NCBI GenBank assembly: GCA_965214035.1
Contig: OZ243932.1
Span: 1,857,260-1,921,259, forward strand
DNA length: 64,000 nucleotides
Direction: 5' to 3'
Origin: Gammaproteobacteria bacterium
Lineage (GTDB): Bacteria > Pseudomonadota > Gammaproteobacteria > JAJDYQ01
Shown here: in pieces, positions 63,459-63,638 of the stretch
How the letters are laid out: each line of letters opens with the position of its first letter
Numbering within the stretch: position 1 is the stretch's first letter
Translations under genes and position numbers: made by a program
The notes under the pieces: generated by a model
Seen by the model: the letters and a program-made list of their open reading frames with translations, nothing else
Told to the model about the DNA's origin: nothing
Databases searched by the model: none

Positions 63459-63638
63459 ATGAAAAAGATACAATCCGGCTTTACACTGACCATCGTTTTC
63501 AACGAAAAGGTACAAGACAACAAAAGGCTTGAATTATCGCCTGTTGTTGATTCCGGTTCCATTGAGTGGGTGTGCCGACCCAGCAGCATCTACAATCCAA
63601 TCGATGAAAAATACCTGCCGACACGTTGCCGTCACTGA
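63459..63638 (+). pseudogene. internally deleted pilin copy (leader + C-terminal D-region only), promoterless
   Basis: 59 codons: [10 protein letters not shown] fused directly to [31 protein letters not shown]...CRH; no TGGCAC-N5-TTGC upstream. Confidence 0.7.

What the first reader, a model, noticed from the sequence alone, without database searches (positions are those of the whole stretch)
63459..63638. Promoterless, internally deleted pilin copy: a silent cassette or recombination scar
The 59-codon ORF joins the first 10 leader codons ([10 protein letters not shown]) directly to the last about 49 codons of a pilin ([17 protein letters not shown]...WVCRP...CRH), deleting the whole structural core. 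It lacks the TGGCAC-N5-TTGC element that every other copy has. Its 5' and 3' ends match those of pilin 3 at the DNA level (ACCATCGTCTTCAACGAGAAAGTACAGAACAAC in pilin 3 versus ACCATCGTTTTCAACGAAAAGGTACAAGACAAC here). It could be a donor or product of gene conversion among the paralogs, analogous to pilS silent loci.
Basis: partly seen in the sequence, partly recalled or inferred. Interest (0 to 1): 0.6.

Follow-up and report, generated by a model that had tools for sequence, protein, structure and literature searches.

The report
Internally deleted, non-functional pilin gene copy
The 59-codon ORF is an ordinary broken gene: a recent in-frame 252-base deletion in one member of a tandem pilin family that is still intact at the same position in close relatives, not a stored cassette for antigenic variation.

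Summary
Window 63459-63638 encodes 10 prepilin leader codons fused in frame to the last 49 codons of a type IV pilin, and it has no sigma-54 element of its own. The other six pilin copies in the window each have one.

The pilS-like reading does not hold. In four related assemblies (L136, L137, L139, and L141 as far as its contig reaches), an undeleted pilin, which I call p6 (143 aa where complete), sits at this position. It starts 43 nt after the stop of pilin 5, with no promoter or terminator between the two genes. The ORF (pT) matches p6 at 29/30 and 145-147/150 bases, so pT is p6 minus codons 11-94. The junction shows 1 nt of microhomology.

Having no promoter is therefore the ancestral state of a p5-p6 two-gene unit. 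It is not evidence of a silent cassette.

The deletion removes the whole alpha-1 helix, the alpha-beta loop and strand 1. Only the window and its ~99%-identical sister contig L081 carry it.

pT shares no variable-region tract with any other copy. The resemblance to pilin 3 is old paralogy: 73% nt identity with saturated dS.

Best reading: a recent loss-of-function deletion allele, probably still transcribed behind p5. Interest is low.

The parts
62901..62915 (+). Sigma-54 -24/-12 element (TGGCACGCTAATTGC) of pilin 5. It is the only promoter-like element that could drive transcription through pT.
   Evidence: 6 matches versus 0.58 expected. Searches find no sigma-70-like or sigma-54-like site between it and pT.
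62960..63415 (+). Pilin 5 (p5, 151 aa). It has a conserved 12-aa tail after the usual C-terminal CR motif ([12 protein letters not shown] here) and no terminator hairpin behind it.
   Evidence: (N_methyl + Pilin).
63416..63458 (+). 43-nt p5-pT spacer with a weak Shine-Dalgarno sequence (GAG) and the p5/p7-type 5' leader CGAG.AATCTGAA. It has no promoter and no terminator. The spacer is colinear with the p5-p6 spacer of the relatives.
63459..63488 (+). pT 5' stub: codons 1-10 ([10 protein letters not shown]), equal to codons 1-10 of intact p6 (29/30 nt).
63488..63489 (+). Deletion junction. The parent reads CTG-A|TCGAG ... ATTGTT-A|CCATCG. 252 nt (codons 11-94) are missing, in frame, with 1 nt (A) of microhomology.
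63489..63638 (+). pT 3' part: codons 11-59 plus stop, equal to p6 codons 95-143 (end of strand 2, strands 3-4, and the disulfide-bounded D-region). It matches p6 orthologues at 145-147 of 150 nt.
63639..63749 (+). Spacer downstream of pT with no terminator-like hairpin. It is colinear with the p6-p7 spacer of the relatives.
   Evidence: (z-score 0.27).
63750..63764 (+). Sigma-54 element of the next pilin (p7): TGGCGCACTAATTGC.
63814..64000 (+). 5' part of pilin 7, cut off by the end of the window. The full gene is seen in L081 at 3993-4415.

Best explanation
pT is a recent loss-of-function allele of a pilin paralogue that I call p6. In this lineage p6 is the second gene of a two-gene unit, p5-p6, transcribed from the sigma-54/PilR-type promoter in front of p5. 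One illegitimate deletion of 252 bp (codons 11-94, 1 nt of microhomology, in frame by chance) occurred in the common ancestor of the window genome and contig L081. It removed the hydrophobic alpha-1 helix, the alpha-beta loop, strand 1 and the start of strand 2. The remnant is probably still transcribed as the tail of the p5 mRNA and may be weakly translated. Its 59-aa product has no membrane-anchor or assembly helix and no E+5, so it should not be inserted, processed or polymerised. It has no function and will decay. Shown: the anatomy, the intact orthologue at the same position, the shared junction and the missing structural elements. Inferred: co-transcription, lack of function, and tolerance of the loss because two p6-like paralogues (p2, p3) are present in this lineage.
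For: - An undeleted p6 lies 43 nt after the p5 stop in L136 (NCBI GCA_022825085.1), L137 and L139, where it is a complete 143-aa gene, and in L141 as far as its contig runs, 42 codons.
- pT matches p6 at 29/30 and 145-147/150 nt and is exactly 252 nt shorter. The multiple alignment shows a single clean gap with colinear flanks.
- Only the window and L081 carry the deletion. They differ by about 0.7-1% across the array and share the junction.
- None of the six genomes has a promoter motif or a terminator between p5 and p6/pT. Terminator hairpins are present after p1-p4.
- An AlphaFold model of the intact orthologue (pLDDT 88.8) places alpha-1 at prepilin residues 10-61, strand 1 at 84-90 and strand 2 at 93-98. 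The deletion of residues 11-94 removes these elements, apart from the first alpha-1 residue and the end of strand 2. Pfam finds only the C-terminal half of Pilin and no N_methyl motif.
- The pT remnant is no more diverged from the orthologues than its flanks are: 4/180 against 26/456 in p5 and 14/175 in the downstream spacer, window versus L136. This fits a recent event.
- p2 and p3 are the paralogues closest to p6 (65-71% aa) and are present only in the window/L081 lineage.
Against: - There are no expression data, so co-transcription and lack of function are inferred.
- The ORF is intact and the deletion is in frame. This is expected one time in three and is uninformative at under 1% divergence.
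- The two post-split substitutions in pT (window Q40R, L081 S42G) are both non-synonymous and both lie in the D-loop. This fits relaxed constraint but would also fit diversifying selection, and n = 2 decides nothing.
- Only two genomes carry the allele.
Confidence: 0.9

Rival explanations
1. pT is a pilS-like silent donor cassette. It would be kept as a store of D-region sequence and copied by gene conversion into expressed pilin copies to vary the pilus surface.
For: - pT has no promoter of its own.
- It retains the most variable surface part of the pilin, the disulfide-bounded D-loop.
- Recombination between array members does occur. L081 carries a p3/p4 hybrid made by unequal crossover in the conserved 5' region.
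- dS is lower in the 5' 150 nt than in the rest of the gene.
- The only G4 motif in the 64 kb lies about 480 nt upstream of p1.
Against: - The intact gene in relatives is equally promoterless, sitting in an operon with p5.
- pT keeps the RBS, ATG and leader, which pilS copies lack, and it has lost the semivariable region, which pilS copies keep (features of the Neisseria system per PMC13321361).
- There is no nucleotide-level conserved flank such as cys1, cys2 or SmaCla. The longest exact match of the 3' part to any other copy is 22 nt (p2), at most 10 nt in the D-loop, and the 3' flank is unrelated to those of p1-p4.
- No pT-derived tract is seen in any copy of the six genomes.
- pT is a single copy, and tblastn finds no other fragment.
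- The allele is very young.
Confidence: 0.03
2. The remnant has acquired a new role. It could act as a small protein, for example a decoy for pilin-binding partners, or as an RNA element in the p5 (or p5-p7) transcript that affects stability or read-through into p7.
For: - The ORF is intact and lies 43 nt behind p5 with a weak SD.
- There is no terminator before the p7 promoter.
- In L081 the -24 GG of the p7 promoter is mutated to AG, so p7 there might depend on read-through across pT.
Against: - The product lacks the hydrophobic segment needed for export, so its two cysteines would stay reduced in the cytoplasm (inference from type IV pilin biology).
- RNA folding of both flanks is no better than shuffled sequence, with z-scores of +0.27 and +2.1.
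- There is no Rfam hit.
- The allele is confined to two near-identical genomes, so nothing shows that it is maintained by selection.
Confidence: 0.05
3. The truncated copy is an assembly artefact, produced by collapse or misjoining within a repetitive pilin array.
For: Tandem paralogues with 5' ends that are near-identical between some copies are a classic source of misassembly.
Against: - The identical junction is present in an independent metagenome contig (L081, labelled 132x) that differs from the window by scattered SNPs, including two inside pT.
- The junction does not lie in repeated sequence. It has 1 nt of microhomology, and the deleted segment ends in unique sequence.
Confidence: 0.01

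Closest known systems
Neisseria gonorrhoeae/meningitidis pilS silent pilin cassettes (pilE/pilS antigenic variation)
   Same: It is a partial pilin coding sequence without a dedicated promoter, lying near expressed pilin genes. It retains the disulfide-bounded hypervariable loop.
   Different: - pilS copies lack the RBS, start codon and conserved N-terminal coding region, and they keep the semivariable and hypervariable regions. pT keeps the RBS, ATG and leader and lacks the semivariable part.
- pilS and pilE share the cys1, cys2 and SmaCla repeats at nucleotide level and depend on a G4/gar sRNA element (PMC13321361). pT shares no such flanks.
- pT is a single copy.
- pT has an intact orthologue at the same position in relatives.
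Ordinary bacterial pseudogenes and deletion alleles within multigene surface-protein families
   Same: A single illegitimate deletion with minimal microhomology hit one redundant paralogue. It is present in one sub-lineage only, the orthologue is intact elsewhere, and the remnant is still embedded in its transcription unit.
   Different: Nothing substantive. The only unusual detail is that the deletion is in frame and leaves a tidy leader plus C-terminus ORF that looks designed.
Tandem major-pilin paralogue arrays under PilS-PilR/sigma-54 control. Examples from my own knowledge, not tested here: two tandem pilE genes in commensal Neisseria (mentioned in PMC3960869), Eikenella ecp genes, Xylella/Xanthomonas pilA duplicates.
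   Same: pilS-pilR lie directly upstream, there are -24/-12 elements in front of the pilin genes, and copy number varies between strains.
   Different: The array here is large: at least 7 copies in the window and 2 to 7 in the relatives. It contains one bicistronic pair (p5-p6), and pT is the broken second gene of that pair.
Moraxella bovis/lacunata Q/I pilin inversion (Piv); from my own knowledge
   Same: Partial pilin coding segments lie next to an expressed pilin gene.
   Different: All copies here are in the same orientation. There are no significant inverted repeats around pT (only a 10-nt pair), and no recombinase gene in the array. An IS256-type transposase lies about 13 kb away.

Membership tests
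Functional type IVa major pilin (N_methyl PF07963 + Pilin PF00114) | Class III leader with G-1/F+1, E+5 and the about 50-residue hydrophobic alpha-1 helix | tested here: not met
   The leader [10 protein letters not shown] is retained, but E+5 and the helix are absent. There is no N_methyl hit. The model of the intact orthologue puts alpha-1 at prepilin residues 10-61, nearly all of it inside the deleted codons 11-94.
Functional type IVa major pilin (N_methyl PF07963 + Pilin PF00114) | Four-stranded beta-sheet plus C-terminal disulfide-bounded D-region | tested here: inconclusive
   Only the end of strand 2, strands 3-4 and the D-region with both Cys residues remain. The Pilin profile is matched at positions 58-108 of 108 only.
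Sigma-54/PilR-dependent pilin gene | A -24/-12 element (TGGCRC-N5-TTGC) 65-81 nt upstream of the start codon | tested here: not met
   The element is present for p1-p5 and p7 and absent for pT. The best near-match has 2 mismatches, lies inside p5 and is not conserved. The intact p6 orthologues lack it too.
pilS-type silent cassette | Lacks a promoter, RBS, start codon and the conserved N-terminal coding region | tested here: not met
   The promoter is absent, but the SD-like GAG, the ATG and the first 10 codons are present.
pilS-type silent cassette | Carries the semivariable and hypervariable regions of the pilin | tested here: not met
   The region equivalent to the semivariable part (codons 11-94) is the part deleted. 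Only the D-loop region remains.
pilS-type silent cassette | Nucleotide-level conserved flanks shared with the expression locus (cys1, cys2 and a 3' SmaCla-like repeat) | tested here: not met
   The longest exact matches are 22 nt with p2 around GSIEWVC, at most 10 nt around the second Cys, and at most 11 nt in the 3' part for the other copies. The 3' flank is unrelated to those of p1-p4. dS against p2 and p3 is 1.4-1.6.
pilS-type silent cassette | Donor tracts seen in expressed copies, that is, variation between genomes or reads | tested here: not met
   No copy in the six genomes carries pT/p6 D-loop sequence other than p6 itself. Read-level variation is not testable with these tools.
pilS-type silent cassette | A G4-forming sequence with an associated sRNA promoter upstream of the expression locus | tested here: inconclusive
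   There is one G4 motif on the minus strand at 59062-59079, inside the 3' end of pilR and about 480 nt upstream of p1. It is the only one in the 64 kb. Nothing links it to recombination, and it codes for a proline-rich linker.
Deletion allele (pseudogene) of an intact orthologous gene | An intact orthologue at the syntenic position in close relatives, with colinear flanks | tested here: met
   L136, L137 and L139 (complete gene) and L141 (5' part). PilR is 97.6% identical between the window and L136.
Deletion allele (pseudogene) of an intact orthologous gene | Loss of a part essential for the function of the family | tested here: met
   Alpha-1, the alpha-beta loop and strand 1 are removed. 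That these parts are essential rests on established type IV pilin biology, not on an experiment here.

The most novel reading that the evidence does not exclude
The truncated copy, together with the lone G4 motif upstream of the array and the demonstrated inter-copy recombination, could be part of a Neisseria-like pilin diversification system in an uncultivated environmental gammaproteobacterium. In that reading pT would serve as a D-loop donor, or as a homology bridge that promotes array rearrangement.
Probability: 0.03. Interest if true: 0.6.

Novelty: new member of a known kind. Interest (0 to 1): 0.1.

Why it matters
It matters little in itself. It is one more example of gene decay in a redundant surface-protein family.

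It is useful as a caution. A tidy "leader plus variable C-terminus, no promoter" ORF in a pilin array looks like a designed silent cassette, but comparison with close relatives shows a single recent deletion in the second gene of an operon.

The surrounding array is the more interesting object. It runs from 2 to at least 7 sigma-54-driven pilin paralogues downstream of pilSR. It shows gain and loss of copies, an unequal-crossover hybrid between near-identical strains, and orthologue divergence of 65-96% while PilR stays at 97.6%. The organism belongs to an uncultivated gammaproteobacterial lineage related to MAG GCA_022825085.1, the GTDB placeholder clade JAJDYQ01.

Tried and rejected
- **Exact-sequence look-ups.** pT, p5, PilR and p1 are not on record, so the source genome is not in the collection.
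- **Metagenome scan with p5.** It returned nothing above 51% over the full length.
- **Protein search with pT.** It gave a single hit, which led to L081. The protein search with p5 then gave the decisive orthologues.
- **dN/dS of pT against p2 and p3.** Values are 0.14-0.16, the same as p2 against p3. This shows only that most divergence predates the deletion. dS is saturated, so it cannot date the event.
- **Window versus L081 divergence.** It is too low (2/180 in pT) for any selection test.
- **Origin of the spacers.** A 9-nt direct repeat, GACAGGCGC, flanks pT at 63377 and 63698. I considered it as a possible insertion signature and rejected it, because the whole p5-p6-p7 region is colinear with relatives that carry intact p6. 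Similarity of the p5 tail to the 3' flank of p7 is not significant (73 of 300 shuffles reach it). Similarity of the pT 3' flank to the p7 3' flank is marginal (2 of 200 shuffles).
- **Decay of the pT Shine-Dalgarno sequence.** Rejected as evidence. The same position varies (G, C or T) among genomes with intact p6.
- **Terminator or RNA structure around pT.** None found.
- **Invertible-segment model.** Rejected, because there are no inverted repeats.
- **P0005 look-up** (a 2.5-Mb genome) failed.

Full report
**Context.** The end of the window holds sucD and sucC on the minus strand (53877-55915). These are followed on the plus strand by a PilS-type histidine kinase (56200-57930) and a PilR-type sigma-54 activator (57930-59306). 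After them comes a head-to-tail array of type IVa pilin genes:
- p1 59558-59980
- p2 60622-61053
- p3 61341-61775
- p4 62060-62482
- p5 62960-63415
- the 59-codon ORF, here called pT, 63459-63638
- p7 from 63814, cut off by the window end

The motif TGGCRC-N5-TTGC occurs six times in the 64 kb against 0.58 expected. Each site lies 65-81 nt upstream of one of the six full-length copies. p1 to p4 are each followed by a G+C-rich hairpin and a T-run. p5 and pT are not.

**Check of the observation.**
- pT translates to [59 protein letters not shown].
- The first 30 nt are 29/30 identical to the starts of p1, p3 and p4.
- The remaining 49 codons align without gaps to the C-terminal end of p2, and with one gap to p3.
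- Pfam matches only the second half of the Pilin profile (positions 58-108 of 108, E 1.9e-6) and finds no N-methylation motif.
- No sigma-54 element and no sigma-70-like site precede pT.

The claimed DNA match to pilin 3 is true for the quoted 33-mer. Over the whole 3' part, however, identity is 73% to p3 and 68% to p2, with dS of 1.4-1.6 (saturated) and dN/dS of 0.14-0.16. That is the same as p2 against p3, so this is old paralogy, not a recent copy.

**What it is.**
- A protein search with pT found one near-identical 59-aa protein. It lies on contig L081, which is about 99% identical to the window across the array and carries the same p5-pT-p7 arrangement.
- A protein search with p5 found p5 orthologues at 92-97% identity. 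Their contigs are L136 (NCBI GCA_022825085.1), L137, L139 and L141.
- All four carry an undeleted pilin at the position of pT, starting 43 nt after the p5 stop. I call this gene p6. It is a complete 143-aa gene in L136, L137 and L139. In L141 the contig ends after 42 codons.
- pT equals p6 at 29/30 nt (5' end) and 145-147/150 nt (3' end), and it lacks exactly 252 nt, codons 11-94.
- In the five-way alignment the window and L081 show one clean gap and colinear flanks on both sides.
- The parent reads ...ACACTG-A-TCGAG... and ...ATTGTT-A-CCATCG.... The junction therefore has a single base of microhomology. This is an illegitimate deletion, not a homologous exchange between paralogues.

**What "promoterless" means.** None of the six genomes has a promoter motif or a terminator between p5 and p6/pT. 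In all of them p5 carries the same 12-residue tail after the usual C-terminal CR motif and lacks the hairpin that follows p1-p4. The lack of a promoter is therefore the ancestral state of a p5-p6 bicistronic unit and says nothing about silencing. By inference, pT is still transcribed from the p5 promoter at 62901.

**Consequence for the protein.** I made an AlphaFold model of the intact orthologue (P0008, 55-sequence alignment, mean pLDDT 88.8). P0008 carries 11 extra N-terminal residues from an upstream start call, and the numbering below corrects for that offset. In prepilin numbering:
- alpha-1 spans residues 10-61
- strand 1 spans 84-90
- strand 2 spans 93-98
- strand 3 spans 107-115
- strand 4 spans 118-125

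The deletion removes alpha-1 (from its second residue), the alpha-beta loop, strand 1 and the start of strand 2. Without the hydrophobic helix and E+5 the product should not be inserted into the membrane, processed or assembled. This follows from established type IV pilin biology and was not tested here.

**Age and selection.**
- The window and L081 differ by 0.2-1.7% per segment of the array and share the junction.
- Against L136 the pT remnant differs at 4/180 positions. That is less than p5 (26/456) or the downstream spacer (14/175).
- The deletion is therefore recent and confined to this sub-lineage.
- After the split, each genome acquired one substitution in pT. Both are non-synonymous and both lie in the D-loop (window Q40R, L081 S42G; polarised with p6). 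This is compatible with relaxed constraint, but n = 2 decides nothing.
- p2 and p3 are the paralogues closest to p6 (65-71% aa) and occur only in the window/L081 lineage. Redundancy is a plausible reason why the loss was tolerated. This is inference.

**Test of the silent-cassette idea.** The defining features of the Neisseria system were taken from PMC13321361:
- pilS copies lack the conserved N-terminal region but contain the semivariable and hypervariable regions.
- The cys1, cys2 and SmaCla repeats are shared with pilE.
- A G4/gar sRNA element lies upstream of pilE.
- Recombination tracts are bounded by microhomology.

pT fails most of these:
- It keeps the RBS, ATG and leader, and it has lost the semivariable part.
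- Its longest exact match to any other copy is 22 nt (p2, GSIEWVC). The match is at most 10 nt in the D-loop or around the second Cys.
- Its 3' flank is unrelated to those of p1-p4.
- No copy in any of the six genomes carries its D-loop.
- tblastn finds no other pilin fragment in the window or in L081.

Recombination between array members is nevertheless real. L081 carries a hybrid made of the p3 promoter and about the first 65-100 nt of the p3 coding sequence joined to the rest of p4. One unit has been lost by unequal crossover inside a stretch that is identical between p3 and p4. Long exact matches between paralogues (up to 62 nt) are confined to the 5' 130 nt, where dS is also lower. pT retains only 30 nt of that region.

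**Organism.** PilR is 97.6% identical to that of L136. The WGS prefix of L136 (JAJDYQ01) names a GTDB order-level placeholder clade of Gammaproteobacteria (PMC11427306). The window therefore most likely comes from an uncultivated member of that clade. This is inference.

**Verdict.** The finding is real but ordinary. It is a young, in-frame internal-deletion allele (pseudogene) of the second gene of a pilin operon. The pilS analogy is not supported, and "recombination scar" holds only in the sense of an illegitimate deletion.

Noticed in passing
window 61341-62482; L081 2100-2800: L081 lacks one array unit. Its third copy has the p3 promoter, leader and about the first 65-100 coding nt joined to the rest of p4. 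The crossover lies in a stretch identical between p3 and p4. This is unequal homologous recombination between paralogues in strains that are about 1% diverged.
   Followed up: yes
window 63750-63764; L081 about 3929-3943: In L081 the -24 element of the p7 promoter reads TAGCGC instead of TGGCGC (TGGCGT in L136, L137 and L139). This hits the GG that is normally invariant in sigma-54 promoters. In L081, p7 might therefore depend on read-through from p5 across pT.
   Followed up: partly
window 59305-59337, 60290-60302, 60368-60400, 62765-62790: There are palindromic repeats, GACAAAATCTGTC and GACAGATTCTGTC, upstream of p1 and p2, with a degenerate pair upstream of p5 and another upstream of the last pilin in L081. 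They look like PilR upstream-activator sites. None is evident before p3, p4 or p7, although those copies have -24/-12 elements.
   Followed up: partly
window 59062-59079 (minus strand): The only G-quadruplex motif in the whole 64 kb (GGGTCTGGGGTGGGGGGG) lies in the 3' end of pilR, about 480 nt upstream of the first pilin gene. It codes for a proline-rich linker, so it may be coincidence. L081 starts 25 nt downstream of it, so its conservation could not be checked.
   Followed up: no
window 63377-63415 (p5 tail); L136, L137, L139, L141: p5 carries a conserved 12-residue acidic/serine tail, DRRSSEQGE(T/V)(G/W)D, beyond the CR motif with which the other pilins end. It has no terminator and is always followed 43 nt later by p6 or pT. 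This is the only bicistronic pair in the array.
   Followed up: partly
window 59558-64000; L081 1-5300; L139 3716-7763; L140 8914-10423: Array size ranges from 2 pilins (L140, a 2.57-Mb genome with PilR 81% identical) to at least 7. Between the window and L139, orthologue identity is very uneven while PilR stays at 97.6% (window versus L136): p1 69%, p4 84%, p5 91%, p7 96%, last copy 65%. This suggests diversifying selection or allele exchange at particular copies.
   Followed up: partly
L081 5329-13817; L140 10478-17805: Downstream of the array lie one or two membrane proteins of 641-650 aa (weak GT_STM0557_N hit), then a glycosyltransferase family 2 protein, a methyltransferase and a DegT-type aminotransferase. 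This may be a pilin glycosylation cluster. It lies beyond the window end.
   Followed up: no
window 49455-50663 and 47493-48281: A Mutator/IS256-family transposase (E 1e-95) and a NYN plus OST-HTH/LOTUS domain protein lie about 10-13 kb upstream of the array.
   Followed up: no
window 62795-63589 (minus strand): A 264-aa ORF runs antisense across p5 and pT. It is the longest ORF in the region in the mechanical list. It is most likely a spurious antisense frame of the pilin genes.
   Followed up: no
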